Under the pieces are notes generated by a model. That model had not been told where the DNA came from, did no database searches, and saw nothing but the letters and a program-made list of their open reading frames with translations. Positions 31,001 to 44,576 of a stretch of DNA of 64,000 nucleotides are shown in pieces. A program made the translations under genes and the position numbers. Position 1 is the first letter of the stretch; each line of letters starts with the position of its first letter. Source of the stretch: Balneolaceae bacterium (GTDB taxonomy: Bacteria > Bacteroidota > Rhodothermia > Balneolales > Balneolaceae); assembly GCA_020832415.1 (NCBI GenBank), contig JAFIES010000115.1:1189-65188 (forward strand). The letters are read 5' to 3'.

Positions 31001-34000
31001 CTTTGTGTTTGAAAACCCGTTCAGAATACTCTCAGCCGGCCTGGAGAATGATACCGATCTTTTGGTTCAATTTACCTTGCCCATTCAAACACCACAGCTT
31101 GTTGGTACCGGAAGTTTTGAGCTGTCTGATGGCACATCACCATCCTCTGTAAGTGTAGCAAACTCTGAGACTCTTCGCCTCTCATTCTCAGAGCCGTTTG
31201 ATGTTGGCAGCTATCTCATCATAGCGAATGATATTACAAGCCTTGAAAATGGATGGGAGCTGGAAGAGAATTCAGAATTTGAATTTTTCAGGTTCGACGA
31301 ATACCAGCCGGGTGATATTGTGATCAATGAATTTATGTATCGCCCGCCGGAGGGATATCCGCGCTATGTGGAAATTCATAATGTGTCGGGCAGGTTTTTA
31401 AATTTGAGAGACTGGGAGTTGCGAAGAGCTGAAGGAGCATCCTCGAATGGTGGAGCTTTCAGTGAGTTCGATCTGCCCATTGAACCTGGCGGATTTGTAG
31501 TTATCACACCGAATGCATCTCTTCTTGAGGAAATTTTTGGTGATGGCCCCTGGGTTCAGATGAATAATTATCCCGGGCTTACCCAAACAACGCCCGATCG
31601 CATTCGCCTGATCGACAGCGAAGGGGATGTAGTTGAGTTTGTAGATTACAACCCGTCAACCTGGGGTGGAAATGGTGTGGCTTTGGAAAGAAGACGAACG
31701 GATTTAACACCCGAATTTTCAGAAAACTGGGACGAATCACCAAATGAACTGCTGGGGACACCGGGTCAGCCGAATGAGGTGAATCCGAATTTTGAACTGG
31801 TTGCTGAAACAGTTGAAGCACTCAGCAGAGAAGAAGTGAGAGTTGTTTTTAATGCAGATATACGTGAATCAGATGCAATTCCGGCTAATTTCTCTGTGGG
31901 AGGTACAAATCCCGAGTCGATTGTGTTCGAAAACGGAAATGAGGTACTGCTTGAGTTTAGCTCCAATCTCTCTCGCGGTGAGCGAACACTTACAATCAAT
32001 TCTGTACGTACTTTGGGTGGCTTTGAGATAGCTTCCAATTCGCAATACAGCTTTTTTGTGTTTGATCCCCATCAAAGTGGCGACATTGTTATCAATGAGT
32101 TTATGTACCGGCCTGCATCCGGTTTTGTGAGATATGTAGAGCTCTATAATCGTTCAAACAGGTTGATCAATTTGCGTGACTGGGAACTTCGCAGGGCCGA
32201 AGGTGCACCAAGTAATGGAGGTGTTTTTAGCGATTCTGATCTGGCTATACAACCGGGTGGTTACATTGTCATCACTCCTGACGACGAGCTACTTGAAGAG
32301 ATTTACGGATCAGGACCGTGGGTACAGATGAACAATTTCCCTGGTTTTACTCAGACAGTGGCTGATCAGATCAGACTGATAAATCCCGATGGTGATGTTG
32401 AGCAATTTATTGAGTATGTACCATCCACCTGGGGAGGCAATGGGGTGTCACTTGAACGAAGAAGTGTCAGTTCGCCGGAAAATAATCTGAATAACTGGGG
32501 TGAATCACTTGCAGAGCTGTTTGGAACGCCCGGTGAAGTAAATACAGTGGAACCTGATGATAAACTGCCAGAACTGATTCGGGCAGGATTTGTGAGTGCT
32601 GATACTGTTTCTGTAGAATTTTCAGGCTCTCTCGATCTGGATCAGATTTCAACCGGTAATTTTGAAATCAGCAGCAGTTTAAATATTGCCGCCGTTGAAT
32701 TTATTGATCCATTTAATGCATTGCTTGTTTTGAGTGGATCCATGAACTCAGGCACTACATATACAGTTACAGCATCCAATATCCCGGATATTTTTGGAAA
32801 TGTTTTAAGCAGTGCCCAGGCTCAGTTTTCCTACTATCTTGTTGAACAGGCTGAGCCCGGTGATGTGGTGATCAACGAATTTATGTACAACGAACCGGAC
32901 GATTACACCCGATATATTGAGCTCTTTAACCGAAGCAGTAAAGCTGTCGATTTGGCCGGATGGCGACAGGCCAATGACACGGGAACACGGCGCACTATTA
33001 CCAATCAGCAGACCATACTGCCGCCAAATTCTTATATCGTAATCGTTCCGAATGAGAACTTACTCTCCATTTTTCCTGATTTACCGTTTGTGAATGCCGG
33101 AGGAAATTTATCCGCATTGAAAAACGGGGGTGATGAAATTGTTATCGAAAATAACCTTGGGGAAGTGATGGACTCCCTGCGATACAGCCCAACATGGGGA
33201 GGTAATGGTGTGGCTCTTGAACGGCGCCGTGCAGACAGATCACCACTATTCCGGGAAAACTGGGCAGAATCACCCAACGAATTGTTTGGAACACCGGGTG
33301 CACCCAATGATGTAGAGCGTGATTTCAACCTGACAGCAACAACCGCTCGGGCAACATCCCGACGCGCAGTTGAAGTTGTGTTCAATGCAAATATCAGGGA
33401 AGATGATCTGATAACCTCAAATTTTTCAGTGAATGGTGCGAATCCATCCGAGATTACTTTTGAAGAGACCGATACAATTCTATTAGAGTTTGACAACAAC
33501 TTCCCGATAGGAAGCCGGACTCTCACAATTTCTAACATTCGTACACTTGGCGGGTTTCAGATAGCCGATAACTCACAGTTTACATTTACAGTGTTTGATG
33601 AATTCGAGGATGGGGATATTGTAATCAACGAATTTATGTATCGTCCGCCAACGGGATATGTACGATATGTTGAGCTTTTTAATAACTCTGACAAACTGCT
33701 CAATCTGCGTAACTGGAGGCTTCAGAGGCGTCAAATTTCAAGTGAATCAAGAAGAATTATTTCTGAAGACGATCTGCTTCTTGAACCGGGTGATTTTATC
33801 GTAATCACAGAAGATGAAGAGCGAATGGTTGAAATTTTTGGTGAGCGAAACTTCTACGAAATTTCAAGCTTTCCCAATTTTACAGTAACCGCAGCCGATC
33901 AAATAAGGCTCTTCACAGATACAGATCTGTTGGCAGATTCACTGGAATATACACCATCTTCATGGGGTGGAAACGGGGTGGCACTGGAGAGAATCAGTGC

Positions 34001-36107
34001 GGATGCACCGGCTACACTACAACAAAATTGGGAGGAATCGCCCAATGAACTACTCGGTACACCCGGATTGCCAAATGATGTTACTCCGGATACCCAGCCA
34101 CCCGTTCTGCTGAGCGGTGTTCAGTTCGAAGATCAGGGATTCAGGCTGCGTTTCAATAAAGAGCTTGACTCTGAAACGGCACTTACAGCTTCCAATTACT
34201 CCATTTCACCGTCAATGTCTGTTTCAATGGTTGGCTTAGATGGAACAGACGTTATTCTTTTCGTTAGTGGTGATTTGGTGAATGATCAGGTATATGAAAT
34301 AACTGCACAGAACATAAGTGATATTTTTGGAAATGTGATGCAGCCAACAACCATATCTGTTCGATATCTCGAATTTGGGGATGCTCAACCACGGGAGATT
34401 GTAATCAATGAAATTCTCTACAGAAGATTACAGGCCGGAAGCCCGGAGTTTGTTGAGATTTTCAACCGGACTGAGCAGAATTTTGATCTTACCGGATGGA
34501 GCCTCGCCGATGCCACCGGCAGTGCCAATATTCCGGCGGGAACGGCCATTCGGGAGAACGATTATCTGGTATTTACAGATACAGAATCATTTGCAGCAGA
34601 GAACGAAAGAATTATCTATCTGCCCGGATTTCGATCACTCAACAACACAACTGACGCCGTTGTGATACGAAATTCTTCAGGAACTGCAATCGACAGTCTT
34701 ACCTACCGGGCATCGTGGTATAACAACCCCGCAGGAGTCTCACTCGAGCGAAGAGACCCGGCGGCTATTTCCATCGACCGGGCAAATTGGGCTCCAAGTA
34801 CGGATGAACGCGGCTCAACACCTGCAGAAGAAAACAGCAGGTTTGAACCGGATGAAACACCGCCTTCTGTAATTTTTGCAAACATATTTCACCCTGATTC
34901 TCTTGAGGTTGTTTTCAGTGAATTTATAGATCTGACGAATGAAACCGGGACCGGTTCAAACAAAAATGGTATGATGGCGAATCGATTGGATCAGAGAAAT
35001 GATACACCCAACAACACAAGGTTTTTGATAAATGGATCGGTTACAGATCTGTTGAAATATGACGCCCGCTTTGGAAATCGGGTAGTACTGAGTGCAGCCG
35101 GCACTACTTTTGGCGAATCGATTACACTGACTATCGAAAACCTGGGAGATTTTCAGGGAAATATTTCAACAGAGATTGAGCAGCCTGTAGCACAGCCTCT
35201 TCAGCCCGGCGATCTTGTTTTCAATGAAATTATGTACAATCCGCTGGCTGACGATCGCGATGGAATTCCTGATCAGTCTGAATATATTGAAATCTACAAT
35301 CGCAGGTCGTATGCGGTATCACTGGAGGGGATTTTTCTGCACGATGAACCGAATGAAAATGATGAAATTGTACGTATTGAACCTTTAACGAGCTCTCAGA
35401 GATGGTTGCCGGCAAATGGTTATGCACTTTTTTATCCTGAGCCTACAGCGAGGCCGTTTACAGAGAGCCGGACAGCACGGTTCTTTGAACTGAGTGATGA
35501 TTTTGAGCCATTTGCTTTTCAGGCTATTCGAACTACGCTGAGTCTTCCGAATGCCGGTCGCAGAGTGTACCTCGCCGACAGCACCCGAACAGTTATCGAT
35601 ATGGTAGATTACAGCCCCGACTGGCACAATCCAAACCTGGTGGATACACGGGGAATTTCGCTCGAACGCGTTAATCCGGATTTAGAAACAAACGATCCAT
35701 CCAATTGGAGCTCAAACACCACCATTCAGGGCGGGAGTCCCGGGATGCAAAACTCAATATTTCAGGAAACGGCAGTATCCATTACAGATACCGGTGTTTT
35801 TCTTGATCCGAACCCCTTCTCTCCTGATGGTGATGGGTTTGAGGATAATCTCTTTATCAATTATAAATTTGATGAACCCGACTATCTGCTGCGGGTACGA
35901 ATTTACGATCGATACGGGCGATTGGTGAGAACCCTTGCTGAAGGTACTGCTGCCGGTTTCGAGGGATCGATTATTTGGGATGGCCTTACGGATGATGGGC
36001 AGAGAAACCGGATAGGTATCTACATTGTATTTGTTGAGGCATACAACAGCAGCAGCGGCAGAAACAGGGCATTCAGGGAAACCGCAGTACTTGCGAGGCA
36101 GTTTTAG
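28086..36107 (+). CDS. Giant secreted multi-domain protein (2673 aa). It has a jelly-roll-like N domain, Ig-like repeats, seven lamin-tail-domain (LTD) modules and a C-terminal FlgD-Ig/T9SS-CTD-like beta-sandwich.
   Basis: The signal peptide ends ...GPALQAQQ. The LTD signature recurs seven times: INEFMYRP..RYVE[LI].N.S...LNLR.W.L ... WGGNGV[AS]LERR...NW.ESPNEL.GTPG.PN. The C-terminus reads NPFSPDGDGFEDNLFINY...VRIYDRYGRLVRTL...IIWDGLTDDGQRNRIGIYIVFVEAY. Confidence 0.9.
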   Translation: MTLLLRSIRYSLIFIISVITLGPALQAQQVVFEEDFEGYSSVADFINNSPWSGDLEDFTLVTENGNQLLRLNASEAGLSELSFESETAYGTWEFYYRPEVAPSNANRTHFFLISETDDFNIIGSGATSSTNGYVLRAGDNTGNRVFKLGRVVNGSLATTNIFLETNTVIEEGVGYFVRITRSENGDWQIILRNDVNDDEEITVVANDNIYTTSSHSGIAVIYSGLNTENFFFDDFIISEETDEFLAESVELTRANQLDITFNNTVDEFTVLTSNFSVDGGAGNPSSAEVLDGEDNVVRLTFSDPFGDGDFNLTINNVQDEFGQEIEPGTELPFSVTNPFDVESITAVSSTSLEVEFTEAPDEATLSTSNFTLSGGGITGSIQPDNIEYTEGEESVFLNFGTALSLGDYQLTIDDVLSEFDWPLRGDNVFDFEVENPFIVTDFNALNRTTFEITFSQDIQSGGDNTANYSIAGIGSPQIAEVPAGSPNVVIIQFADPLDEGDFELQIENITSVDSWQIDDGTAAEFALINNFELDTLDLFRGDEITLEFSDVPDEATLITSNFEISGIGNPADISYDPLADPNIVVLELNEPLFSDDYTLITTNLLSEFGWPLFGDTEFAFTVDNPFEVSDFEIVSTTEFVVTFSQNLLAGSVNTSAFVINGIGSPNNASIENDNAVRITFNDSVDEGDQELIINDIRSLEGWQIAPDTTIPFALFGDYEPGDLVVSELYYRVPISWRTSEFDRPRYLEIFNRSDKTLNLRNFTLTGQNISVDSDLPISPGEYLVLTRGVPVFEERFGERNFVEVDNFPTLNLTTSSSVVFETDEGELIEQFTYVASTWGGNEVSLERISFDVPSEFRDNWAESEDILTGSPGLPNTVSPPTDVPQAVSAAFPAPQTLRITFSRTLSESSLESLSNFSLNNNAVFTSVEFTSDERTIEFELDDTLEDQFEYTLSYQNIDDIFGNSVSGAQQFNFVFENPFRILSAGLENDTDLLVQFTLPIQTPQLVGTGSFELSDGTSPSSVSVANSETLRLSFSEPFDVGSYLIIANDITSLENGWELEENSEFEFFRFDEYQPGDIVINEFMYRPPEGYPRYVEIHNVSGRFLNLRDWELRRAEGASSNGGAFSEFDLPIEPGGFVVITPNASLLEEIFGDGPWVQMNNYPGLTQTTPDRIRLIDSEGDVVEFVDYNPSTWGGNGVALERRRTDLTPEFSENWDESPNELLGTPGQPNEVNPNFELVAETVEALSREEVRVVFNADIRESDAIPANFSVGGTNPESIVFENGNEVLLEFSSNLSRGERTLTINSVRTLGGFEIASNSQYSFFVFDPHQSGDIVINEFMYRPASGFVRYVELYNRSNRLINLRDWELRRAEGAPSNGGVFSDSDLAIQPGGYIVITPDDELLEEIYGSGPWVQMNNFPGFTQTVADQIRLINPDGDVEQFIEYVPSTWGGNGVSLERRSVSSPENNLNNWGESLAELFGTPGEVNTVEPDDKLPELIRAGFVSADTVSVEFSGSLDLDQISTGNFEISSSLNIAAVEFIDPFNALLVLSGSMNSGTTYTVTASNIPDIFGNVLSSAQAQFSYYLVEQAEPGDVVINEFMYNEPDDYTRYIELFNRSSKAVDLAGWRQANDTGTRRTITNQQTILPPNSYIVIVPNENLLSIFPDLPFVNAGGNLSALKNGGDEIVIENNLGEVMDSLRYSPTWGGNGVALERRRADRSPLFRENWAESPNELFGTPGAPNDVERDFNLTATTARATSRRAVEVVFNANIREDDLITSNFSVNGANPSEITFEETDTILLEFDNNFPIGSRTLTISNIRTLGGFQIADNSQFTFTVFDEFEDGDIVINEFMYRPPTGYVRYVELFNNSDKLLNLRNWRLQRRQISSESRRIISEDDLLLEPGDFIVITEDEERMVEIFGERNFYEISSFPNFTVTAADQIRLFTDTDLLADSLEYTPSSWGGNGVALERISADAPATLQQNWEESPNELLGTPGLPNDVTPDTQPPVLLSGVQFEDQGFRLRFNKELDSETALTASNYSISPSMSVSMVGLDGTDVILFVSGDLVNDQVYEITAQNISDIFGNVMQPTTISVRYLEFGDAQPREIVINEILYRRLQAGSPEFVEIFNRTEQNFDLTGWSLADATGSANIPAGTAIRENDYLVFTDTESFAAENERIIYLPGFRSLNNTTDAVVIRNSSGTAIDSLTYRASWYNNPAGVSLERRDPAAISIDRANWAPSTDERGSTPAEENSRFEPDETPPSVIFANIFHPDSLEVVFSEFIDLTNETGTGSNKNGMMANRLDQRNDTPNNTRFLINGSVTDLLKYDARFGNRVVLSAAGTTFGESITLTIENLGDFQGNISTEIEQPVAQPLQPGDLVFNEIMYNPLADDRDGIPDQSEYIEIYNRRSYAVSLEGIFLHDEPNENDEIVRIEPLTSSQRWLPANGYALFYPEPTARPFTESRTARFFELSDDFEPFAFQAIRTTLSLPNAGRRVYLADSTRTVIDMVDYSPDWHNPNLVDTRGISLERVNPDLETNDPSNWSSNTTIQGGSPGMQNSIFQETAVSITDTGVFLDPNPFSPDGDGFEDNLFINYKFDEPDYLLRVRIYDRYGRLVRTLAEGTAAGFEGSIIWDGLTDDGQRNRIGIYIVFVEAYNSSSGRNRAFRETAVLARQF
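30246..35753 (+). repeat. Intragenic tandem array of seven LTD-plus-Ig-like modules
   Basis: LTD modules start at 30246, 31311, 32079, 32859, 33612, 34392 and 35209. From module 2 onward the period is about 750-820 bp. Modules 2+3 and 4+5 form a higher-order repeat of about 1.54 kb (31311->32859, 32079->33612). Confidence 0.8.
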
Positions 36108-36139: not shown

Positions 36140-37687
36140 ATGAAATGTGCAGTAGCTGCCGGGCACACTGAAACTGCAAAGAGTGCGGCCAACGTGTTAA
36201 AAGAAGGAGGAAACGCATTTGATGCGGTAGTTGCAGCACATCTAACTGCATGTGTTGCTGAACCGGTCCTCTCATCACTTGGGGGAGGCGGCTTTTTGCT
36301 TGCCAAAAGTGCAACCGGGAAATCGGTTTGTTATGATTTTTTTGCACAAACACCATTTGTAAAAAACAGAGAGACAGCCGGTTCATTTTTTAATATCTCT
36401 GCCGATTTCGGTACGGTAAAGCAGAATTTTCGGGTAGGCCCGGGTTCCATTGCAACACCCGGTACTGTTAAAGGTTTATTCAGTATCCATAAGGATCTCT
36501 GTTCGATGCCATTTGAAAGGCTCGCTGACCACGCTTCAAATCTTGCCAAAAATGGTGTTGTGATGAATAAGTTCCAGGCTGAAATATTGCGGATTGTAAA
36601 ACCCATCTACCAAATTGATAGTGATGTAAAGAAGTATTTCTCATCTGATGTTGACGGCAATTTGCTAAGAGAAGGAGATCTGTTCAAAAACCCGGAGTTT
36701 GCAGATGTTTTGGAAGGTTTATCCAAAGAAGGAGAAGCATTTTTTTATGATGGAGAAATTGCAAAATCTATTCAAAATGTAAGTGCGGGGTCAGGCGGGC
36801 ATCTTACTGCTGAAGATTTAAAAAATTACGAGGTCGAAAGAAGAGAACCGCTTGCGTGTGAGCTGTTCAACAATACGTTTATCATTAATCCACCACCCGC
36901 ATCGGGAGGTATTTTAGTGGCATTTGCCGCAAAACTGTGTGAAGCCGCTGGTCTTAATCGGTTCAAACCGGGAACCGCTGATTATTTAGAGCGGCTTGCA
37001 GAAGTTCAGAAGCTTACAAATAAAGCGAGAATTGAGCAGGTGATGGATGATCAAAGTGAAAACCGGTTAAATGAACTGCTGGGCGATGATCTGATCAATC
37101 TATACAGAGCCGAAATCAGTCAGAGGTTTTCATCGGGCAGGGGTACAACTCAGATAAGTGTTGCCGATCAGTTTGGCAATTTTGCATCCTTAACTACCAG
37201 CAATGGGGAGGGTAGTGGCGTGTTGGTTCCGGGCACATCAATAATGATGAACAACATGCTTGGTGAAGAGGATCTTTTTCCCGGAGGAGCCGGAAGTTGG
37301 GAGCCAAATCAAAGAATATCATCCATGATGGCTCCCGGTATTCTTCAGTTAAATGATGGCCAGGAAATTGCATTTGGATCGGGTGGATCGAATCGAATAC
37401 GAACAGCTATTTTACAAGTACTGCTGAATATAATGGCTTATCAGGGTGACATCAGAAAGGCCACTGAGGCATCACGGATTCATGTGGAGGGAGATACATT
37501 AAATATTGAGGGTGGCTTCGATATGCAAACCATTCGGCATCTCGAAAAACTGTTCAAGGATACTGAAATTTGGGATAATCAAAGCCTCTTTTTTGGAGGT
37601 GTCCACCTTGTGGGCAGATCGAAAGATGGTCTCTTCTCAGGCTTCGGAGATCCCCGGCGCGGTGGAGTATTTTTGACTGTTGATTAA
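36140..37687 (+). CDS. ggt: Gamma-glutamyltransferase-family (Ntn-hydrolase) protein without a signal peptide
   Basis: The N-terminus AAGHTETAKSAANVLKEGGNAFDAVVAAHLTACVAEPVLSSLGGGGFLL is GGT-like. GRGTTQISVADQFGN is the autoprocessing Thr site and GSGGSNRIRTA is a further GGT block. The gene starts 32 nt after the giant gene with no terminator hairpin between them. Confidence 0.88.
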   Translation: MKCAVAAGHTETAKSAANVLKEGGNAFDAVVAAHLTACVAEPVLSSLGGGGFLLAKSATGKSVCYDFFAQTPFVKNRETAGSFFNISADFGTVKQNFRVGPGSIATPGTVKGLFSIHKDLCSMPFERLADHASNLAKNGVVMNKFQAEILRIVKPIYQIDSDVKKYFSSDVDGNLLREGDLFKNPEFADVLEGLSKEGEAFFYDGEIAKSIQNVSAGSGGHLTAEDLKNYEVERREPLACELFNNTFIINPPPASGGILVAFAAKLCEAAGLNRFKPGTADYLERLAEVQKLTNKARIEQVMDDQSENRLNELLGDDLINLYRAEISQRFSSGRGTTQISVADQFGNFASLTTSNGEGSGVLVPGTSIMMNNMLGEEDLFPGGAGSWEPNQRISSMMAPGILQLNDGQEIAFGSGGSNRIRTAILQVLLNIMAYQGDIRKATEASRIHVEGDTLNIEGGFDMQTIRHLEKLFKDTEIWDNQSLFFGGVHLVGRSKDGLFSGFGDPRRGGVFLTVD

Positions 37688-37700: not shown

Positions 37701-38561
37701 TTATAAACTTGTTTCTGCAATTTTTAACAGCTGCTGCAGATCCTCAACGCGCCCGGTATTCTTCGCTTTTGCATAAGCATGCATCAAATTCCGGATGCAG
37801 CGTTTCAGAATCTCCGCTTCATCGGCTTTTTTCAAGTGTTCCGGGCGTGGTTCAATTCCATTTTTTTTCAGAAAATAGCAGCATTGATTGTAGGTAACTA
37901 TGGAGCCGCTATCGAAGGGATCAATAAGTATTTCACGATCGTGCATTTTATACATCAGCATGAAATGAATCGGCATATTCACTCCGTAAAACGGCAGGCC
38001 TAATCGGCGGGCCAGGAAAATCACAATGGCACTGAGCATAATGGGCAAACCTTTTCTGCGATCAATCACCCTGTCGAGATATGCATTATCCGTGTTATGA
38101 TAATCTTTTGCATCACCGCGAAACCGAAGCTCACGAAATACAAATTGCAGCATGATCTGCATTTTCTCGGTCATGGATGGTGTATACGCTATCTCGCTGC
38201 CAATTTGAGAGCTCAGTTTATTCAGTTTCTTGCGATACTCCTCAACACGCAGAGTAGGGTTGCCAAATTTGCTTAGCAGCAGTAGGGCATCTTCCAGTTG
38301 GCGCCTGTCATTTACACCCTGTTCAGCGAGTTCCGCAAACTCATCCAGAATGGAACCATACGTAATGGAGGAGATAATCTCATTGATAGAATCTTTTTCG
38401 GTTTCACGGATTGATTCACTCCGGAACTGATCCAGCAGCGGGACAGCATTTTCTCCAAGCTCTTTAAATCGGTTACGTACTCCGTGCTGTACCTCCGGAT
38501 CGGGATCATCAAGCAGGTAAATCAGCGATTCTATTTCATTCGGTTTGGGATGTTCTGCCAT
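37701..38561 (-). CDS. SirB1/YchA-type transglutaminase-like protein with an N-terminal HEAT-like repeat
   Basis: RKGLPIMLSAIVIFLARRLGLPFYGVNMPIHFMLMY matches the UPF0162/SirB1 N-domain core. The N-terminus is LLDDPDPEVQHGVRNRF. Confidence 0.7.
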   Translation of the reverse strand: MAEHPKPNEIESLIYLLDDPDPEVQHGVRNRFKELGENAVPLLDQFRSESIRETEKDSINEIISSITYGSILDEFAELAEQGVNDRRQLEDALLLLSKFGNPTLRVEEYRKKLNKLSSQIGSEIAYTPSMTEKMQIMLQFVFRELRFRGDAKDYHNTDNAYLDRVIDRRKGLPIMLSAIVIFLARRLGLPFYGVNMPIHFMLMYKMHDREILIDPFDSGSIVTYNQCCYFLKKNGIEPRPEHLKKADEAEILKRCIRNLMHAYAKAKNTGRVEDLQQLLKIAETSL

Positions 38562-38811
38562 AATTTTTTTTAAGTAAACACTCTGTACTGGATAACGATT
38601 CCAAACTTAGGCACGAATTTTACCCAAATCAATTTTTATAATAATTGATGATTCATTGCCCGAAAATGAGATCAGAATAATCAGAAAGGCATCAATTTGG
38701 CCGTATTATCAAATAATTTCCTGTTTTTGAATAGTAAAATGTAAATTAAATATTATACTTGTTTTAACAGGAAGTTCTTTAAATCTAATTTCACACTAAA
38801 ATCAATAAGAA

Positions 38812-40752
38812 ATGGGTGTAGAAACAGTAAAACTGGCAGAAAGCAAAGAACAGGTTCAGGAGTTTATCAAATACCTGCTAAAGGATATCCGGGCGATGGA
38901 AAAGATGCTTTCGGAAGATTATTTCGAGACAGATACCATTCGCATCGGGGCCGAACAGGAACTTTGCCTGGTTGATAAATATGCAAAGCCGGCGCCTATC
39001 TCTATTGAACTGCTTGAAGTACTGAATGATGAAGCCTTTACGACCGAACTTGCCCGCTTCAACCTTGAAACCAATCTTGACCCCCTTGAATTTAAGGGAA
39101 AATGCCTGTCTCAGCTCGAAGCCAATATTCTCAATCAGCTTGATAAAGCCCGCGAAGCGATAAAGCAATTTGAAGGAGATGTTGTTTTGACCGGTGTATT
39201 ACCAACCATCAGGAAATCAGATCTGGATATTGAAAATCTTACACCACTGCCCCGATACAGGGCTTTGTGCGATGCCATCAATAAACTTCGGGGCGATGAA
39301 TACGACCTGCGTATCCAGGGTATGGACGAGTTACTGATGCGTTTTGATACACCACTTTTAGAAGCGTGTAATACCGGGTTTCAGGTTCATCTTCAGGTAA
39401 ACCCCGATGAATTTGTGAATAAATACAACCTTGCCCAGGCGATAACAGGACCCGTACTGGCTGGGGCTGTAAATTCCCCCCTGTTATTTGGAAAGCGCTT
39501 ATGGGCCGAGACACGAATTGCACTGTTCCATCAGTCTGTGGATACGCGCCAGGTTGGCGACCACCTCCGCGATAACAGCCCCCGTGTAACGTTTGGCAAC
39601 GAGTGGCTGAAGAACAGCATTCTTGAAATTTATAAAGAGGATATAGCCCGGTACAGAGTGATGCTCAGCTCAAACCTTACCGAGGATGTAGATGAAATTC
39701 TTGAATCCGGCGGGGTGCCAAAACTCATGGCATTGCAAGTGCATAATGGAACGGTGTATCGATGGAACAGGCCTTGTTATGGAATCAGCAACGGTAAGCC
39801 GCACTTAAGGATTGAGAATCGAATTTTTCCGTCTGGGCCAACCGTAACCGACGAAATTGCAAACGCATCGTTCTGGCTTGGATTGTTAAATGGTATGGAC
39901 AGTGAATATCCAGATATCTCAAAAGTTCTCGATTTTGATGATGCCAGAATGAATTTTATCGCTGCGTCAAAACTTGGCCTGGATACAAAATTTAAATGGG
40001 TTAGGGATAAACGATATTCAGCAGTTGAGCTTATCACTAAAGAGTTGCTGCCACTGGCAAGGGAAGGGCTTAAGAATGCCAATGTGTATGAAGGTGATAT
40101 CACCAGTTATCTCGATGTGATTGAAGAGCGAACGGAGTCTGCACAAACAGGTAGCTACTGGATGGTAAAATCGTACAATTCTTTAAGTAAAGTTGTGAGT
40201 AAAGAACAGGCTCTTACCGCTGTTACCAATGCAATGATAAAAAATCAGCGAAAAGGAGAGCCTGTGCACAAATGGGGCCTTGCTAAACCGGATGACATGG
40301 AGATGTGGCAGCCATCATCCCTGCTGGTGGAAGAATTTATGACAACAGACCTGTTTACTGTTCAAAAAGATGATATTATCGAGCTTGTAGCTAATCTCTT
40401 TGAGTGGAGACGAATACGGTATGTGCCGGTGGAAGACGACAGTAAACACCTTGTTGGACTGATAACCATGCGGATGATTTTCAGGGAGTTTAATGATATT
40501 CTACACAACAGGGGCTCTTCGAGCAAAGCAGTTGAAGATATTATGATCAAAAACCCTATCACGATTCACCCCGAGGCTTCAATCCTTGAGGCGATAGAGA
40601 TTATGGACAGTCAGAAAATAGGATGCTTGCCTGTAGTAAAAAATAACCGGCTTGTTGGTATTATTACTGAGCAAAATTATATGACAATTACATCAAGACT
40701 GCTGAAACAGATGCATAAAAATAACGGAAAAAAGGACCTCAGCGATAGCTGA
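38812..40752 (+). CDS. GCS2-family (YbdK/EgtA-like) carboxylate-amine ligase fused to a C-terminal CBS pair
   Basis: The GCS2 blocks are RIGAEQELCLVD, ACNTGFQVHLQV, WAETRIALFHQS and PHLRIENR. Two CBS repeats sit at the C-terminus (FMTTDLFTVQKDD..., IMIKNPITIHPEASILEAIEIMDSQKIGCLPVV). Confidence 0.85.
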   Translation: MGVETVKLAESKEQVQEFIKYLLKDIRAMEKMLSEDYFETDTIRIGAEQELCLVDKYAKPAPISIELLEVLNDEAFTTELARFNLETNLDPLEFKGKCLSQLEANILNQLDKAREAIKQFEGDVVLTGVLPTIRKSDLDIENLTPLPRYRALCDAINKLRGDEYDLRIQGMDELLMRFDTPLLEACNTGFQVHLQVNPDEFVNKYNLAQAITGPVLAGAVNSPLLFGKRLWAETRIALFHQSVDTRQVGDHLRDNSPRVTFGNEWLKNSILEIYKEDIARYRVMLSSNLTEDVDEILESGGVPKLMALQVHNGTVYRWNRPCYGISNGKPHLRIENRIFPSGPTVTDEIANASFWLGLLNGMDSEYPDISKVLDFDDARMNFIAASKLGLDTKFKWVRDKRYSAVELITKELLPLAREGLKNANVYEGDITSYLDVIEERTESAQTGSYWMVKSYNSLSKVVSKEQALTAVTNAMIKNQRKGEPVHKWGLAKPDDMEMWQPSSLLVEEFMTTDLFTVQKDDIIELVANLFEWRRIRYVPVEDDSKHLVGLITMRMIFREFNDILHNRGSSSKAVEDIMIKNPITIHPEASILEAIEIMDSQKIGCLPVVKNNRLVGIITEQNYMTITSRLLKQMHKNNGKKDLSDS

Positions 40753-40769
40753 ACATATTTAAAATACAG

Positions 40770-42677
40770 GTGCTTAATATGGGGCAGCAAAAGCTTTCAA
40801 TTGCAAAAGATCCTGAATCGAGGAAGAAGTTTCTTCTACATTTGCTGCATGATGTAGAAGCAATCGAAAAAATGCTCGAAGATGGACAGTTTGAATCAGG
40901 TATTAGCCGAATCGGTGCTGAGCAAGAGTTTTGTCTTGTGGATAAACATTTCAGGCCGTCTTTAAACTCGCTTCAGGTATTGGAGAAGATATCAGATCCC
41001 CATTTTACACCTGAACTTGCCAGGTATAACCTCGAAATAAATCTGGATCCGCTAAAATTCAGCGATGACTGTTTCTCGGTGATGGAAACGAGTTTGCGAA
41101 ATTTGCTCAATAAAGCAGAGTTGGCGGCCGGTTCATTCGAAGAGAAAATTGTACTGACTGGTATCCTGCCTACCATTGATTACAGAGCAGTTCAGATGGA
41201 GTATATGACTCCAAAACAGCGCTATGAAGCACTTGCCAATATCATTGCTGAATTGAGGGGTGAAGATTTTGAATTGAATATTACGGGTGTGGATGAGCTT
41301 ATTTTGAAACATCACAATATTCTTTTTGAGGCGTGTAATACCAGCTTTCAATGCCACTTACAGATAGAGCCGGATGAATTTCCTGATATGTATAACTGGG
41401 CGCAGATGTTATCAGGTCCGGTGCTGTCGGTAGCGGCAAATTCGCCGTTATTGATTGGAAAACAGCTATGGGCTGAAACACGGATACCCCTTTTTCAGCA
41501 AAGTATTGATACACGTGGTAAGGGGTATCACCTGAGGGAGCGTGCGCAGCGGGTAACGTTCGGTAACAGATGGATAGAAAATGTAGGAGATGTATATAAA
41601 AACGACATAGCCAGGCATACCCTTCTCTTTATGACAGATATCAAAAAAGATTCTCTGGATGTTTTAAAGGAGGGGAAAATACCAAATCTCAGGGCATTAC
41701 AGCTCCATAACGGAACCATTTATAAATGGAACCGACCTTGCTATGGCGTTACAAATGGTGTGCCGCATCTGCGCATTGAAAACAGATATTTGCCATCCGG
41801 TCCAACTGTAGATGATGAAATCGCCAATCTTGCACTTTGGTGTGGTTTAATGAGCAGTATGCCTGATAAGTTCAGGGGAAATTGGAGTAATATGCCGTTT
41901 GAAGAGGCTAAAGAGAATTTTCACAAAGCGGCAATGTGGGGTATCCAAAGTGGAATGGTGTGGGATGGGCGCCTCACTTCTGCACGAAATCTTATTCTGG
42001 ATCAGTTGCTGCCCATGGCACAAGAGGGGCTCGAATCAAAGAACATTAACTCGGGCGATATCGATAAATATCTTTCGATTATTGAACAGCGGGCTGCCCG
42101 CCATGCTACCGGCTCAAGATGGATCGTAAACAGTTATCGCAAACTAAAAAAAGAACTGGCAAGAGATGAAGCCGCAATTGCTCTCACGGTAATCATGCAC
42201 AACAGAAGATTATCGGGCTCGCCTGTTCATGAATGGGAGCCTGCAACTCTTGAGGAGGCCGAAAAACTTGAACTTCACTATGAATTTGTGAGCAATGTAA
42301 TGACCACAGACCTGATTACAGTGAATGAAAACGATTTGGCTTACCTTGTGCTCAAAATAATGGATTGGAGAAACATACGGCATTTGCCTGTTGAAGATAG
42401 CCGTGGATATCTGAAAGGAATTATTACAAAAAAGAGATTGGTTCAGTATCTTAGTGATCCCAAAAAGAAAGACCTCGCAACAGCCGGAGATGTGATGGAG
42501 AAAGATCCTGTAACCATTGGCCCAAACGAGGATATAAAATTTGCCATGCTCTTGATGCTTGATAAAGGGGTAAGCAGTTTGCCTGTGGTAGAACACGGAG
42601 AACTGATTGGAATAATAACAGACAAGGATACAAGAGACGTGTGGAATAAGATGAAGAAAAAAACTGATGCAGATTAA
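40770..42677 (+). CDS. Second GCS2-family carboxylate-amine ligase fused to a CBS pair, paralog of 38812-40752
   Basis: It carries the same blocks (RIGAEQEFCLVD, ACNTSFQCHLQI, WAETRIPLFQQS, PHLRIENR) plus two CBS repeats. The gap from the upstream paralog is 17 nt. Confidence 0.85.
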   Translation: MLNMGQQKLSIAKDPESRKKFLLHLLHDVEAIEKMLEDGQFESGISRIGAEQEFCLVDKHFRPSLNSLQVLEKISDPHFTPELARYNLEINLDPLKFSDDCFSVMETSLRNLLNKAELAAGSFEEKIVLTGILPTIDYRAVQMEYMTPKQRYEALANIIAELRGEDFELNITGVDELILKHHNILFEACNTSFQCHLQIEPDEFPDMYNWAQMLSGPVLSVAANSPLLIGKQLWAETRIPLFQQSIDTRGKGYHLRERAQRVTFGNRWIENVGDVYKNDIARHTLLFMTDIKKDSLDVLKEGKIPNLRALQLHNGTIYKWNRPCYGVTNGVPHLRIENRYLPSGPTVDDEIANLALWCGLMSSMPDKFRGNWSNMPFEEAKENFHKAAMWGIQSGMVWDGRLTSARNLILDQLLPMAQEGLESKNINSGDIDKYLSIIEQRAARHATGSRWIVNSYRKLKKELARDEAAIALTVIMHNRRLSGSPVHEWEPATLEEAEKLELHYEFVSNVMTTDLITVNENDLAYLVLKIMDWRNIRHLPVEDSRGYLKGIITKKRLVQYLSDPKKKDLATAGDVMEKDPVTIGPNEDIKFAMLLMLDKGVSSLPVVEHGELIGIITDKDTRDVWNKMKKKTDAD

Positions 42678-43824
42678 AGAAGCCGACAAGGAAGTTTTAG
42701 AAGATAATGAACGGCTGTGCTGGCATTACAACTCTGAGAAACCGGGTCCGGTTTTGGTTCTCTTAGTGGGTATTCACGGGAATGAGCCCGCAGGTGTAGA
42801 GGCAGTAAAAAGAATCGCTAAAAAAAGCGCGAATTTTGAAGGAAGATTTTACGGCAGTGTGTATGCCATTGCAGGAAACCTGAAAGCCCTTGAACAGGGA
42901 GTTCGATACATCGATACAGACCTGAACCGTTTGTGGGAACTGTTCAATACAAGCAGGGACTACTCCCTGAAAAATGGGGCCGTAAAACCAGTAGAATATC
43001 TCGAAAGCCTTGAGATTAAGCGTGTAATCGAAGCGATTATTAATAGACATGCTGATCAATTAGATGATTTTGTTTTTGCGGATCTCCATACCACATCATC
43101 TCAAAGTTGTGCATTTATTTTACTGAATGATACTCTCTCAAACAGAGAACTTGCCCGAAAATTTCCTGTTCCTCAAATACTCGGTATTGAAGAGAATATT
43201 CAGGGTACACTTCTCAGTTACATCAACAACCTCGGGTTTAGAGCGCTTGGGTTTGAGGCCGGTGCGCACGATGATGAAATATCGATTGAGCGGAGTGTTG
43301 CATTTTTGCATTTGCTCCTTCACCAGGCCGGCAATATTGAACTAACCGATGTTGAACGTCGAAAATACAGTGACATTATTGAGGTGTACGAAGATGTGCC
43401 AAATACGTACTACGAAGTAATCCATCATAAATTGGTGGATAATGCCGAGGATTTTCAAATGATTGAGGGATTTGAAAACTTTATTCCAATTGAAAAGAAT
43501 ACACCTCTTGCATATGAACATGGAATATTAATTCGTGCGCCTAAAAGCGGCCGGATCTTTATGCCTCTATACCAGAAAAAAGGCCATGATGGTTTTCTCA
43601 TAGTAAAAGAGGTTTCTCCATTTTGGCTCGAAGTGTCAGGATATCTCAGGAGAAGTTCTGTTCACGGCTTTCTCAGGTTTTTACCGGGAGTAACCCGAAC
43701 CGGCAATCGCAGCTTCGAAGTTGACCTGAATGTAGCCAGATTTCTTGTAAAAGATATTTTTCATCTTCTTGGCTACAGGGTTACAGAAAAAAATGAATTT
43801 ACGCTTATTTGTTACCGGCGATAA
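42667..43824 (+). CDS. Succinylglutamate desuccinylase/aspartoacylase (AstE/AspA) family zinc deacylase
   Basis: LLVGIHGNEPAGVEA holds the HxxE zinc motif, and DLHTTSS and GFEAGAHDD are further family blocks. It overlaps the upstream ligase gene by 11 nt. Confidence 0.82.
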   Translation: MQIKEADKEVLEDNERLCWHYNSEKPGPVLVLLVGIHGNEPAGVEAVKRIAKKSANFEGRFYGSVYAIAGNLKALEQGVRYIDTDLNRLWELFNTSRDYSLKNGAVKPVEYLESLEIKRVIEAIINRHADQLDDFVFADLHTTSSQSCAFILLNDTLSNRELARKFPVPQILGIEENIQGTLLSYINNLGFRALGFEAGAHDDEISIERSVAFLHLLLHQAGNIELTDVERRKYSDIIEVYEDVPNTYYEVIHHKLVDNAEDFQMIEGFENFIPIEKNTPLAYEHGILIRAPKSGRIFMPLYQKKGHDGFLIVKEVSPFWLEVSGYLRRSSVHGFLRFLPGVTRTGNRSFEVDLNVARFLVKDIFHLLGYRVTEKNEFTLICYRR

Positions 43825-43871: not shown

Positions 43872-44576
43872 ATGTTAGATTATCGATTTGTTGATGGAAC
43901 CCGGCTAACCTCCGTACTCGAAGCGCTGATATTTGCCAGCCCGGAACCTATAACCTGGGAGAAACTTTCAGCGATTATCAAAGAGAGCGAGGAAGAGCTT
44001 GAACTTGACAAGCCCACCATACGGCGTATTGTTGATCAGCTCAATGAACGATTTGAAGAGAATGATCTCTCCTTCAGAATTGAAGAGACCGGCGGCGGAT
44101 ATACCTATGTTACACAACCCCGGTTTCATCCATGGCTCAGTATTTTTCAACATGAAAATGCGTATCGGAAATTATCACAATCGGCCATTGAAACACTGGC
44201 AATTGTGGCGTACCGGCAACCCATCACCAAACCTGAGGTGGATAGTATCCGCGGTGTGGATTCGGGATATATTCTAAGGCAGCTTCTTGAAAAAATGCTC
44301 GTGAAAGTATCCGGCCGGGCCGATTCCCCGGGCAAACCCCTTCTCTATAAAACCACACCCTACTTTCTCAAACATTTTGGAATCAACTCTGTTGATGAAC
44401 TCCCTAAACCGCGCGAAATTGATGAAATTCTGAAAGATGATGATATGGCCGAACATCGCCGGCTTTTGATGGAGAGACAGATGGAGCTGGAAGATCAGCA
44501 GGCACAGGAGCTGTTTGAGGAATTTTCAGAGAATCACGAAGAGAGTGAAGAAGATCAGCAAAATCCGGACTTATAA
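43872..44576 (+). CDS. scpB: Segregation and condensation protein B
   Basis: LEALIFASPEPITWEKL and AIETLAIVAYRQPITKPEVDSIRGVDSGYILRQLLEK are ScpB winged-helix blocks. The tail is acidic. Confidence 0.9.
   Translation: MLDYRFVDGTRLTSVLEALIFASPEPITWEKLSAIIKESEEELELDKPTIRRIVDQLNERFEENDLSFRIEETGGGYTYVTQPRFHPWLSIFQHENAYRKLSQSAIETLAIVAYRQPITKPEVDSIRGVDSGYILRQLLEKMLVKVSGRADSPGKPLLYKTTPYFLKHFGINSVDELPKPREIDEILKDDDMAEHRRLLMERQMELEDQQAQELFEEFSENHEESEEDQQNPDL

What the first reader, a model, noticed from the sequence alone, without database searches (positions are those of the whole stretch)
38812..43824. Operon of two tandem GCS2-type ligases, each fused to a CBS pair, coupled to an AstE/AspA-family deacylase: a candidate uncharacterised amide-metabolite pathway
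Seen in sequence:
- 38812-40752 and 40770-42677 are clear paralogs.
- They share these blocks: RIGAEQE[LF]CLVDK, ELAR[FY]NLE[TI]NLDPL, VLTG[VI]LPTI, EACNT[GS]FQ[VC]HLQ, LWAETRI.LF.QS, RVTFGN, HNGT[VI]Y[RK]WNRPCYG..NG.PHLRIENR..PSGPTV.DEIAN.
- Each ends in two CBS repeats.
- They are 17 nt apart, and the second overlaps the zinc deacylase gene (HGNEPAG) by 11 nt, so the three genes look translationally linked.

Established knowledge:
- The GCS2/YbdK/EgtA fold catalyses ATP-dependent gamma-glutamyl-type amide ligation.
- AstE/AspA-family enzymes hydrolyse N-acyl amino acids (succinylglutamate, N-acetylaspartate, N-acetyl-diaminobutyrate via DoeB).
- CBS pairs bind adenosyl ligands or sense ionic strength.

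Inference:
- Two sequential ligases plus a deacylase, all potentially CBS-gated, suggest synthesis and turnover of a small di- or tri-amide.
- The product could be a low-molecular-weight thiol analogue or an N-acyl/gamma-glutamyl compatible solute.
- I know of no characterised pathway with this architecture.
- A leaderless GGT-like enzyme (36140-37687) lies 1.1 kb upstream and a GGCT-like gene sits at 14046-14450. This fits gamma-glutamyl chemistry but does not prove it.
Basis: partly seen in the sequence, partly recalled or inferred. Interest (0 to 1): 0.7.

Follow-up and report, generated by a model that had tools for sequence, protein, structure and literature searches.

The report
CBS-gated ligase paired with amidohydrolase
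A salt-loving bacterium carries two diverged copies of a sensor-fused, ATP-dependent amide-forming enzyme next to a zinc amide-cleaving enzyme; the one-ligase-plus-one-hydrolase core recurs across many bacterial phyla and is sometimes fused into one protein, so it probably makes and breaks a small amide-linked metabolite that nobody has identified.

Summary
LigA (38812-40752) and LigB (40770-42677) are 45% identical paralogues. Each has a ~490-aa catalytic domain and a C-terminal CBS pair. The AstE/AspA-type zinc hydrolase gene (42667-43824) overlaps LigB by 11 nt.

GCS2 membership is weak by sequence but strong by structure. An AlphaFold model (pLDDT 94) matches yeast, plant and E. coli glutamate-cysteine ligases and YbdK. 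The GhExE Mg/ATP signature and all family-invariant residues are present in both paralogues.

The conserved unit is a pair, not a triad.
- One ligase plus one AstE/AspA hydrolase are adjacent in 24 of 72 usable loci, spanning at least five phyla.
- The pair is also adjacent in all three CBS-less homologue contexts I examined.
- At least four representatives fuse ligase and hydrolase into one polypeptide.

LigB is a deep-branching extra paralogue found only in a Rhodohalobacter-like clade. It is absent from R. halophilus. The GGT and GGCT-like neighbours are not syntenic in relatives.

No curated family, solved structure or paper that I found covers this module. My best reading is a CBS-gated make-and-break (or put-on/take-off) system for a gamma-glutamyl- or beta-aspartyl-type amide. 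The substrate is unknown.

The parts
38562..38811 (+). AT-rich intergenic region upstream of LigA (divergent from the Transglut_core2 gene); presumed promoter region
   Evidence: Sequence read. One weak sigma-70-like match lies at 38727-38756, but matches in the region are no more frequent than in shuffles. No Rfam riboswitch was found.
38812..40281 (+). LigA catalytic domain (residues 1-490): glutamate-cysteine-ligase-fold carboxylate-amine ligase
   Evidence: Pfam GCS2 28.8 bits against a cutoff of 21. AF2 model pLDDT 94.2. Foldseek hits 3ig5, 1r8g and 2gwc at E 1e-14 to 1e-12. GhExE at G46-E50; E86, H193, R333, E335 and R337 are conserved.
40312..40752 (+). LigA C-terminal CBS pair (Bateman module)
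   Evidence: Pfam CBS 90.5 bits, two stretches. PDB CBS proteins match residues 504-636. The G-h-h-T-x-x-D/N motif is kept only in CBS2, where position 622 is D or N in 72 of 78 family members.
40770..42245 (+). LigB catalytic domain (likely true start ATG 40779): diverged paralogue of LigA
   Evidence: 45% identical to LigA. Keeps all 27 family-invariant residues of alignment A2 and all motifs. Orthologues at 67% identity or more occur only in Rhodohalobacter/Balneolaceae. 30 clade-specific fixed differences lie in the catalytic domain.
42270..42677 (+). LigB C-terminal CBS pair
   Evidence: Pfam CBS 90.8 bits, two stretches. CBS2 motif GIITDKD.
42667..43824 (+). AstE/AspA-family zinc amidohydrolase, long type, overlapping LigB by 11 nt
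   Evidence: PF24827 62.8 bits against a cutoff of 25. Aspartoacylase 2gu2 E 2.6e-8. H37, E40, H141, E197, R80, N87 and R88 are invariant in 20 ligase-linked homologues. Foldseek matches AstE, DoeB, ASPA, ACY3 and CphZ. The ~70-aa C-terminal extension (residues 316-385) occurs only in long-type members.
43872..44576 (+). scpB, downstream on the same strand; syntenic with the module throughout Balneolaceae and probably functionally unrelated
   Evidence: Pfam SMC_ScpB 171.9 bits. Ligase-hydrolase-ScpB order is seen in L001, L003-L006, L016, L089-L093 and L095.

Best explanation
The functional unit is a conserved two-enzyme module.

- The ligase is an ATP-dependent carboxylate-amine ligase of the glutamate-cysteine-ligase fold. 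It should phosphorylate a carboxylate, most likely the gamma-carboxylate of Glu or an analogous omega-carboxylate, and join it to an amine.
- It usually carries a C-terminal CBS pair that probably acts as an adenosyl-ligand or ionic-strength sensor gating activity.
- The partner is an AstE/AspA-type zinc amidohydrolase. Its ASPA-like Arg/Asn/Arg clamp should bind an N-acyl amino acid with a free alpha-carboxylate and cleave an amide of that kind.

Together they would form and cleave a gamma-glutamyl- or beta-aspartyl-type amide. This could be regulated build-up and breakdown of one small dipeptide-like metabolite pool. Alternatively it could attach and later remove a transient gamma-glutamyl handle.

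In this Rhodohalobacter-like genome a second, old and diverged ligase paralogue (LigB) sits between the ancestral ligase (LigA) and the hydrolase, and is translationally coupled to the hydrolase. Both ligases look catalytically competent. They probably differ in substrate or regulation, or form a heteromer.

Shown: folds, catalytic residues, gene linkage, fusions and phyletic spread. Inferred: the chemistry, the role of the CBS pair and the physiological purpose.
For: Ligase identity:
- Pfam GCS2 above threshold for LigA. The precomputed Pfam annotation lists PF04107 for both paralogues.
- The AF2 model (pLDDT 94.2, pTM 0.94) matches yeast GCL 3ig5 (E 1.4e-14, TMq 0.77), YbdK 1r8g (TMt 0.78), plant GCL 2gwc and E. 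coli GshA. Matches to GS and PafA/Dop are much weaker.
- The GhExE signature that defines carboxylate-amine ligases (PMC2588565) is present as GAEQE in both.
- E48, E50, E86, Q191, R333, E335 and R337 are invariant across 39 diverse homologues, including LigB.

Hydrolase identity:
- PF24827 hit.
- Zn ligands, general base and carboxylate clamp are invariant.
- The fold matches AstE, DoeB, ASPA, ACY3 and CphZ. CphZ shows that this family can cleave omega-linked isodipeptides such as beta-Asp-Arg (PMC9974463).

Linkage:
- A hydrolase homologue lies immediately downstream on the same strand in 24 of 72 loci. These span Bacteroidota, Planctomycetota, Myxococcota, Gemmatimonadota and Acidobacteriota.
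- The same pairing holds in 3 of 3 CBS-less contexts at ~34% identity, with genes overlapping by 7-19 nt in two.
- Single-polypeptide fusions are P0130 and P0157 (ligase-CBS-hydrolase) and P0226 and P0222 (ligase-hydrolase). P0130 was verified as one ORF.
- No other neighbour is conserved.

CBS as a functional partner:
- It is fused in most members. In L086 it is encoded as separate genes on both sides of the ligase.
- The CBS2 ribose-binding-type motif is conserved.

LigB:
- The triad was seen directly in 7 loci, and the LigB-hydrolase overlap in all six where gene coordinates could be compared.
- Both paralogue clades are strongly conserved, with 43 fixed differences between them.
Against: - No substrate evidence exists. 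Sequence similarity to any characterised ligase is 11-17%, and every NCBIfam equivalog scores far below its cutoff.
- Two thirds of ligase loci lack an adjacent hydrolase, including most Saprospiraceae. The ligase may therefore work without it, or the partner may be encoded elsewhere.
- A synthetase and a hydrolase acting on the same bond would form a futile cycle unless reciprocally regulated. No such regulation is shown.
- The hydrolase model is only moderate (pLDDT 76.6).
- The CBS ligand is unknown.
Confidence: 0.55

Rival explanations
1. Transient gamma-glutamyl handle, following the EgtA/EgtC logic. The ligase is a true gamma-glutamyl-cysteine (or gamma-glutamyl-amine) synthetase. Other enzymes encoded elsewhere modify the amine part. 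The AstE/AspA hydrolase then removes the glutamate, as EgtC does in mycobacterial ergothioneine synthesis or PuuD does in putrescine catabolism.
For: The best structural matches are genuine glutamate-cysteine ligases. LigA has a weak NCBIfam hit to EgtA (E 4.4e-4). In L091, bona fide egtB (561 bits against 360) and egtD (399 against 291) lie directly upstream of LigA-LigB-hydrolase. The window also holds GGT, GGACT-like and DinB/MST-like genes, and L053 has a GGT just downstream of the ligase. This reading avoids a futile cycle.
Against: egtB and egtD are absent from the 64-kb window and from the other 91 loci searched. Only 1 of 7 triad loci has them. No modifying enzyme is conserved next to the pair. 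From background knowledge, many non-actinobacterial EgtB enzymes use free cysteine. All GCL/EgtA equivalog models are far below cutoff. The family also occurs in proteobacterial lineages that, from general knowledge, already have canonical glutathione enzymes.
Confidence: 0.2
2. LigA and LigB act sequentially to build a di- or tri-amide (a glutathione-like thiol or an N-acyl/gamma-glutamyl solute), and the deacylase turns it over.
For: Both paralogues keep all catalytic residues and have clade-specific fixed substitutions suggesting different specificity. The three genes are tightly packed and the triad is stable in 7 loci.
Against: The widespread architecture is one ligase plus one hydrolase. 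R. halophilus, Gracilimonas and every other phylum sampled lack LigB. A two-ligase pathway therefore cannot be the module's general function. From background knowledge, the second step of glutathione-type synthesis normally uses a different fold (ATP-grasp).
Confidence: 0.12
3. Protein or peptide modification. The ligase would attach an amino acid or peptide to a protein carboxylate or lysine, as PafA does. The M14-like hydrolase would trim or reverse the modification, as Dop or cytosolic carboxypeptidases do.
For: PafA and Dop share the carboxylate-amine ligase fold and are detectable structural neighbours. Paired paralogues were proposed to form heterodimers in that system (PMC2588565). The AstE/AspA fold is related to M14 peptidases.
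Against: Structural similarity to PafA/Dop is weak (TM 0.34-0.43) compared with the small-molecule GCLs (0.57-0.78). No conserved small ORF or candidate substrate gene lies nearby. The hydrolase keeps the ASPA-type small-molecule carboxylate clamp and matches MpaA, Csd4 and carboxypeptidases only weakly.
Confidence: 0.07
4. Adjacency without function: ligase and hydrolase are unrelated genes that happen to be neighbours.
For: Two thirds of ligase loci lack the hydrolase next door. In Balneolaceae the block is also syntenic with the unrelated scpB.
Against: There are independent fusions in at least four representatives. The adjacency persists at 34% ligase identity across phyla while every other neighbour changes. 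Overlapping stop and start codons are conserved.
Confidence: 0.03

Closest known systems
YbdK / GCS2 carboxylate-amine ligases (E. coli YbdK, PDB 1r8g; Pfam PF04107)
   Same: Same fold (Foldseek E 1.2e-12, TMt 0.78). Same GhExE Mg/ATP signature and E/R strand; hhalign aligns 'PHfgtvEvR' with 'PHLRIENR'. LigA passes the Pfam threshold.
   Different: Only 11-13% identical. The catalytic domain is ~120 aa larger. A C-terminal CBS pair is present. A conserved AstE/AspA partner and fusions to it exist. The NCBIfam YbdK subfamily model scores 15.7 bits (LigB, the only paralogue that hits it) against a cutoff of 176.
Glutamate-cysteine ligases (yeast Gsh1 3ig5, plant GCL 2gwc, E. coli GshA 1v4g; mycobacterial EgtA)
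   Same: Best structural matches overall (3ig5 E 1.4e-14, TMq 0.77). Equivalent metal-binding strand motifs. Annotators call the CBS-less homologues 'glutamate--cysteine ligase'.
   Different: No GCL or EgtA equivalog model comes near its cutoff. A profile of the family finds no GCL in PDB by sequence. No GshB or thiol pathway is conserved nearby. The CBS fusion and the hydrolase partner are, to my knowledge, not features of known GCLs.
AstE / aspartoacylase / DoeB (EutE) / CphZ zinc amidohydrolases
   Same: The hydrolase has the Pfam catalytic domain, the H-E-H zinc site, the general-base Glu and the ASPA R63/N70/R71-type clamp. It also has the family fold. CphZ shows that the family can cleave omega-linked isodipeptides.
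   Different: 15-21% identical to these structures. It lies below all equivalog cutoffs (53 against 180, 45 against 170, 38 against 306). The long type has an extra ~70-aa C-terminal extension. Its partner is a GCL-fold ligase, not Ast, ectoine or cyanophycin genes.
Glutathionylspermidine synthetase/amidase (E. coli Gss); functional analogy recalled from background knowledge
   Same: A ligase and an amidase for the same amide bond are encoded together, and in Gss fused in one polypeptide. This shows that a make-and-break pair need not be futile if differentially regulated. It parallels the ligase-CBS-hydrolase fusions.
   Different: The folds are entirely different (ATP-grasp synthetase plus CHAP amidase). 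There is no CBS domain and no homology.
EgtA/EgtC (ergothioneine) and PuuA/PuuD (putrescine) gamma-glutamyl put-on/take-off pairs; from background knowledge
   Same: A GS/GCL-superfamily ligase adds a gamma-glutamyl group that a dedicated hydrolase later removes. One relative (L091) has egtB-egtD adjacent to the module.
   Different: EgtC and PuuD are amidotransferase-type hydrolases, not AstE/AspA. The intervening pathway enzymes are not conserved next to this module.

Membership tests
Carboxylate-amine ligase superfamily / GCS2 (PF04107) | GhExE Mg2+/ATP-binding signature on the first core strand (PMC2588565) | tested here: met
   LigA has G46-A-E48-Q-E50 and LigB has G49-A-E-Q-E53. The signature is invariant in 39 diverse homologues. 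Definition read.
Carboxylate-amine ligase superfamily / GCS2 (PF04107) | Score above the Pfam gathering threshold | tested here: inconclusive
   LigA scores 28.8 bits against 21, but only residues 46-158 align. LigB has no hit at E<=0.01 in the local Pfam-A scan. The precomputed annotation with the newer PF04107.19 lists GCS2 for both.
Carboxylate-amine ligase superfamily / GCS2 (PF04107) | GS/GCL-type fold | tested here: met
   LigA 1-490 AF2 model has pLDDT 94.2. Foldseek probability is 1.00 to 3ig5, 1r8g, 2gwc, 1tt4 and 1v4g. LigB was not modelled separately, but it is 48% identical over this domain.
Carboxylate-amine ligase superfamily / GCS2 (PF04107) | ATP-dependent amide-forming activity | not testable with these tools
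   Requires an enzyme assay.
Glutamate-cysteine ligase proper (EC 6.3.2.2: GshA, EgtA, plant GCL) | Match to a curated equivalog model above its cutoff | tested here: not met
   The best matches are EgtA TIGR03444 at 19.2 bits against 370.8 (LigA) and YbdK TIGR02050 at 15.7 against 176.4 (LigB). CbS-less homologues score <=31 bits against cutoffs of 332-427.
Glutamate-cysteine ligase proper (EC 6.3.2.2: GshA, EgtA, plant GCL) | Genomic association with downstream thiol-pathway genes (gshB, egtB-E) | tested here: not met
   No such gene is conserved among neighbours in 80 loci. egtB/egtD occur in 1 of the 92 loci and the window searched. Whole genomes could not be searched.
CBS pair (Bateman module) | Two tandem CBS motifs | tested here: met
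   Two Pfam CBS stretches in each ligase. PDB CBS-pair proteins align over residues 504-636.
CBS pair (Bateman module) | Ribose-binding G-h-h-T/S-x-x-D/N motif, indicating an adenosyl-ligand site (motif recalled from background knowledge) | tested here: inconclusive
   The motif is present in CBS2 only: GIITEQN in LigA, GIITDKD in LigB, and D or N in 72 of 78 family members. It is absent in CBS1. Ligand identity cannot be tested here.
AstE/AspA family (PF24827, M14-like zinc amidohydrolases) | Pfam catalytic-domain match above threshold and the family fold | tested here: met
   62.8 bits against 25. Foldseek E 3e-13 to 1e-9 to AstE, DoeB, ASPA, ACY3 and CphZ. The model has a moderate pLDDT of 76.6.
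AstE/AspA family (PF24827, M14-like zinc amidohydrolases) | H-E-H zinc triad, general-base Glu and Arg/Asn/Arg carboxylate clamp (ASPA H21, E24, H116, E178, R63, N70, R71; the first six positions map from the alignment, the E178 numbering and residue roles are from background knowledge) | tested here: met
   H37, E40, H141, E197, R80, N87 and R88 are invariant in 20 ligase-linked homologues.
AstE, aspartoacylase or DoeB as specific enzymes | Equivalog-level match | tested here: not met
   Aspartoacylase NF002601 scores 53.1 against 180. AstE NF003706 scores 45.3 against 170. TIGR03242 scores 37.8 against 305.65.
Pup-ligase/Dop-type protein modification | Close structural similarity to PafA/Dop and a small Pup-like ORF nearby | tested here: not met
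   TM is 0.34-0.43 to 4bjr, 4b0r and 9cku. No conserved small ORF is found in the neighbourhoods.
Known anti-phage defence systems (PADLOC) | Match to any PADLOC model | tested here: not met
   No hits for any of the three proteins at E<=0.01.

The most novel reading that the evidence does not exclude
The ligase(+/-CBS)-AstE/AspA pair is the dedicated synthesis and breakdown machinery for a so far unrecognised, widespread small gamma-glutamyl- or beta-aspartyl-type dipeptide metabolite. Candidates are a low-molecular-weight thiol or an anionic compatible solute. The pool would be set by a nucleotide or ionic-strength signal read by the CBS pair. It would be used by Bacteroidota, Planctomycetota, Myxococcota, Acidobacteriota, Gemmatimonadota and some marine Gammaproteobacteria. 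In Rhodohalobacter-like halophiles a second ligase would widen the product range.
Probability: 0.3. Interest if true: 0.8.

Novelty: new variant of a known kind. Interest (0 to 1): 0.6.

Why it matters
Both enzyme folds are well known, but three things here appear unstudied.
- This ligase branch has about 700 clusters at 50% identity below E 1e-30, and matching stretches in 599 or more records of a one-genome-per-species collection.
- It is fused to a CBS sensor.
- It has a conserved, sometimes fused, partnership with an AstE/AspA hydrolase.

I found no curated family, solved structure or paper covering any of this.

The module is a compact, self-contained and directly testable entry point. 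Two or three soluble enzymes could be expressed and assayed. The product would be an unknown amide metabolite in several poorly studied phyla.

A thiol product would bear on the open question of which low-molecular-weight thiols these lineages use. An osmolyte product would add a new class of regulated compatible solute. It would also add a new enzyme class to those known to be controlled by CBS domains.

The result also corrects current annotation. Both 'CBS domain-containing protein' and 'glutamate--cysteine ligase' are unsupported as functional names.

Tried and rejected
- Sequence searches of PDB with LigA and with a 39-sequence catalytic-domain profile found only CBS proteins and nothing significant for the catalytic domain. 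Only the structure comparison worked.
- hhalign of the profile against E. coli YbdK and GshA gave motif-consistent but statistically weak local alignments. I could not map substrate-binding residues reliably. Model coordinates are not exposed, so no pocket analysis was possible.
I redid it with a less diverse alignment, hence the moderate pLDDT.
- The promoter and terminator scan was not above the shuffled expectation. The Rfam scan found no riboswitch upstream. PADLOC gave no hits.
- Seven literature searches found nothing on this module. One further query failed on syntax. The PMC id I recalled for Aravind's 2009 amidoligase survey is not held, so I could not check whether that paper mentions this neighbourhood.
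- I looked for alternative hydrolases downstream of ligases that lack the AstE/AspA gene. I found only unrelated genes and one GGT.
- I tested the ergothioneine lead. egtB/egtD are adjacent in only one locus and absent from the window, so I rejected it as a general explanation.
- I rejected GGT, GGACT and Transglut_core2 as parts of the system because they are not syntenic in relatives.
- I rejected 'recent tandem duplication'. LigA is 64-69% identical to single-copy Balneolaceae orthologues, whereas LigB is 48% or less identical to everything outside its own clade and branches deep in an NJ tree.

Full report
**1. The observation**

LigA and LigB are 45% identical and 66% similar over 634 residues. 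All the quoted motif blocks occur in both. Each protein ends in two Pfam CBS repeats (90.5 and 90.8 bits against a cutoff of 24).

The LigA stop is TGA at 40750-40752. NCBI's 632-aa model (P0290) and the parallel 'MG...' N-terminus of LigA favour ATG 40779, a 26-nt gap. The third gene's ATG at 42667 overlaps the LigB TAA by 11 nt, and its start agrees with the database model (P0410). The window comes from a Balneolaceae bacterium close to Rhodohalobacter.

**2. What the proteins are**

*Ligases.* By sequence the GCS2 assignment is thin.
- LigA scores 28.8 bits against a cutoff of 21, over residues 46-158 only.
- LigB has no hit in the local Pfam scan.
- All NCBIfam GCL, YbdK and EgtA models score far below their cutoffs.
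- Neither LigA nor a 39-sequence profile of the catalytic domain finds any solved ligase by sequence.

Structure settles the question. An AlphaFold2 model of LigA 1-490 has pLDDT 94.2 and pTM 0.94. It matches these structures with probability 1.00 at only 11-17% identity:
- yeast glutamate-cysteine ligase 3ig5 (E 1.4e-14, TMq 0.77)
- YbdK 1r8g (TMt 0.78)
- plant GCL 2gwc
- E. coli GshA

Glutamine synthetases and PafA/Dop match much more weakly.

The GhExE signature that defines carboxylate-amine ligases (PMC2588565) is present as GAEQE in both paralogues. E48, E50, E86, Q191, R333, E335 and R337 are invariant in 39 diverse homologues, LigB included. hhalign places GAEQE...NLETN on E. coli GshA GLERE...LLEFIT, and PHLRIENR on YbdK PHfgtvEvR. 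These alignments are consistent but statistically weak. Both paralogues therefore look like active ATP-dependent carboxylate-amine ligases. They belong to a remote branch of the GCL superfamily that no curated equivalog model covers.

*Hydrolase.* The third protein hits PF24827 AstE_AspA_cat (62.8 bits against 25) and rat aspartoacylase 2gu2 (E 2.6e-8). In an alignment of 20 ligase-linked homologues, three sets of residues are invariant:
- the zinc ligands H37, E40 and H141
- the general base E197
- R80, N87 and R88, which correspond to ASPA R63, N70 and R71

A moderate AF2 model (pLDDT 76.6) matches AstE, DoeB/EutE, ASPA, ACY3 and the cyanophycin dipeptidase CphZ. Its matches to MpaA, Csd4 and the carboxypeptidases are far weaker. 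CphZ hydrolyses the omega-linked isodipeptide beta-Asp-Arg (PMC9974463). This shows that the family is not restricted to N-acetyl or N-succinyl substrates. No equivalog model (AstE, ASPA) is reached.

**3. Comparative genomics: the unit is a pair, not a triad**

The catalytic domain defines a large family. There are 713 representatives at 50% clustering below E 1e-30. These fall into a ~640-aa CBS-fused group, a ~495-aa CBS-less group at 34-38% identity, and some longer forms. The 80 loci kept span Bacteroidota, Planctomycetota, Myxococcota, Acidobacteriota, Gemmatimonadota, Calditrichia and Lysobacterales.

Of 72 loci with at least 1 kb downstream of the ligase, 24 have a hydrolase homologue starting within about 180 nt on the same strand. 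These 24 span at least five phyla. The pairing also holds in all three CBS-less contexts I examined: Pontibacterium sinense L082; L083/L084, with a 19-nt overlap; and L085, with a 7-nt overlap.

Four representatives are single-polypeptide fusions:
- P0130 and P0157: ligase-CBS-hydrolase
- P0226 and P0222: ligase-hydrolase

These were found. P0130 was verified as one continuous ORF, and L068 probably carries a fifth fusion. No other neighbour is conserved. By inspection of their sequences, the recurrent clusters look like PriA, ComM, ThyA and similar housekeeping genes, plus a lipoprotein specific to Saprospiraceae.

The CBS pair is frequent but optional. In L086 a CBS-less ligase is flanked by two stand-alone CBS genes. 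Within the fused family, only CBS2 keeps the G-h-h-T-x-x-D/N motif typical of adenosyl-ligand sites.

**4. LigB is a lineage-specific addition**

I saw the LigA-LigB-hydrolase-ScpB block directly in seven loci:
- the window
- L001
- L089 (Rhodohalobacter sp. SW132)
- L091
- L092
- L093 (R. barkolensis)
- L095/L096

In the six of these where gene coordinates could be compared, LigB overlaps the hydrolase by 4-17 nt (L001 gives only tblastn alignment coordinates).

R. halophilus (L090) has one ligase and a short-type hydrolase. Gracilimonas and the other Balneolaceae also have a single ligase. LigA is 64-69% identical to those single-copy orthologues. LigB is 48% or less identical to anything outside its own clade, and it branches deep in an NJ tree rather than next to LigA.

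Both clades are strongly conserved: 343 and 276 of 633 columns are at least 95% conserved. They differ at 43 fixed positions, 30 of them in the catalytic domain and several charge-changing. Both copies have therefore been maintained for a long time, with diverged properties.

The upstream context differs in every triad locus: GGT and Transglut_core2 here, and PriA, a beta-lactamase-family gene, a GDSL lipase or egtB-egtD elsewhere.

**5. How it most likely works**

*Shown:*
- A GCL-fold ligase with an intact Mg/ATP site.
- An AstE/AspA hydrolase with an intact zinc site and an ASPA-type carboxylate clamp.
- Evolutionary coupling of the two by adjacency, overlapping codons and fusion.
- A CBS pair as a frequent covalent or neighbouring partner.

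*Inferred:* The ligase activates a carboxylate, most plausibly the gamma-carboxyl of Glu given its closest structural relatives, and couples it to an amine. The hydrolase cleaves an N-acyl amino-acid-type amide.

The two may act on the same compound. That would allow regulated accumulation and release of a small dipeptide-like pool, a logic with precedents in glutathionylspermidine synthetase/amidase and in cyanophycin synthetase with its hydrolases. Alternatively, they may bracket other steps as a removable gamma-glutamyl handle, as with EgtA/EgtC and PuuA/PuuD. The absence of any other conserved neighbour, together with the CBS sensor, favours the self-contained make-and-break reading. I put that at about 0.55, with the handle model at about 0.2.

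The handle model gains one intriguing datum. In L091, bona fide egtB and egtD sit directly upstream of the triad. They are absent from the window and from the other 91 loci.

Protein modification (about 0.07) and chance adjacency (about 0.03) are disfavoured.

**6. Comparison with what is known, and novelty**

Both folds are known. No NCBIfam equivalog, PDB entry, PADLOC model or paper that I could find covers this branch or this pairing. I could not read Aravind's 2009 amidoligase survey, so prior mention there is not excluded. I classify the finding as a new variant of a known kind: a GCL-superfamily ligase with a CBS sensor and a dedicated AstE/AspA partner.

**7. Verdict**

The ligase-hydrolase link and the uncharacterised status hold. 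The 'two sequential ligases' idea and the GGT/GGCT context do not.
- Interest is 0.6. The module is widespread, compact and experimentally tractable, but its substrate is unknown and both enzyme classes are familiar.

Noticed in passing
L091:311-2606 (ENA ERZ1757541 contig_6011): Bona fide egtB (TIGR03440, 561 bits against a cutoff of 360) and egtD (TIGR03438, 399 against 291) lie directly upstream of a LigA-LigB-hydrolase-ScpB block in a close relative. They are absent from the window and the other 91 loci.
   Followed up: yes
P0134 (800 aa) and P0123 (786 aa), from the exhaustive search: P0134 is a ligase-CBS pair fused to a C-terminal HIT (histidine triad) domain, and P0123 has three CBS repeats. 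The HIT fusion may hint at an adenylated or dinucleoside-polyphosphate ligand for the CBS module.
   Followed up: partly
L086:3574-5897: A CBS-less ligase (P0154, 490 aa) is flanked on both sides by stand-alone CBS-domain genes (140 and 121 aa). This looks like a split version of the fused architecture. No AstE/AspA gene is adjacent.
   Followed up: partly
window 43612-43824 (hydrolase residues 316-385): Long-type hydrolases (this window, Gracilimonas, Planctomycetota, Myxococcota, Gemmatimonadota) carry a ~70-aa C-terminal extension with a conserved FHLLGYR motif. Short-type partners of 305-319 aa lack it. In all six triad loci where its length was seen, LigB is followed by the long type. Function unknown.
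   Followed up: partly
window 14046-14450 and 15717-16277: A GGACT/AIG2-like gamma-glutamyl cyclotransferase (87.7 bits) lies 1.3 kb from a DinB_2/mycothiol-S-transferase-like protein. Both suggest thiol or gamma-glutamyl metabolism in this organism, but they are 23-25 kb from the operon and I did not test their synteny.
   Followed up: partly
window 36140-37687 and L053:2454-4172: A GGT-family protein with no visible N-terminal signal sequence lies 1.1 kb upstream of LigA in the window. An unrelated uncultured bacterium (L053) has a GGT immediately downstream of its ligase, in the place of the hydrolase. These are two independent GGT adjacencies among about 90 loci, which is suggestive but weak.
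   Followed up: partly
window 28086-36107: A 2673-aa ORF on the + strand has an N-terminal hydrophobic leader and many internal repeats. It looks like a giant secreted or cell-surface protein. Not analysed.
   Followed up: no
L012, L013, L019-L021, L026, L029, L030, L034, L035, L044, L056, L057 (upstream of the ligase): In Saprospiraceae/Lewinellaceae loci, which lack the adjacent hydrolase, a conserved ~180-aa lipoprotein-like gene of unknown function lies divergently upstream of the ligase in 13 loci.
   Followed up: no
window 37701-38561 (- strand): A Transglut_core2/SirB1-like gene lies divergently upstream of LigA. The same family appears at this position in L091 and probably L001, but not in L089, L092, L093 or L095.
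   Followed up: partly
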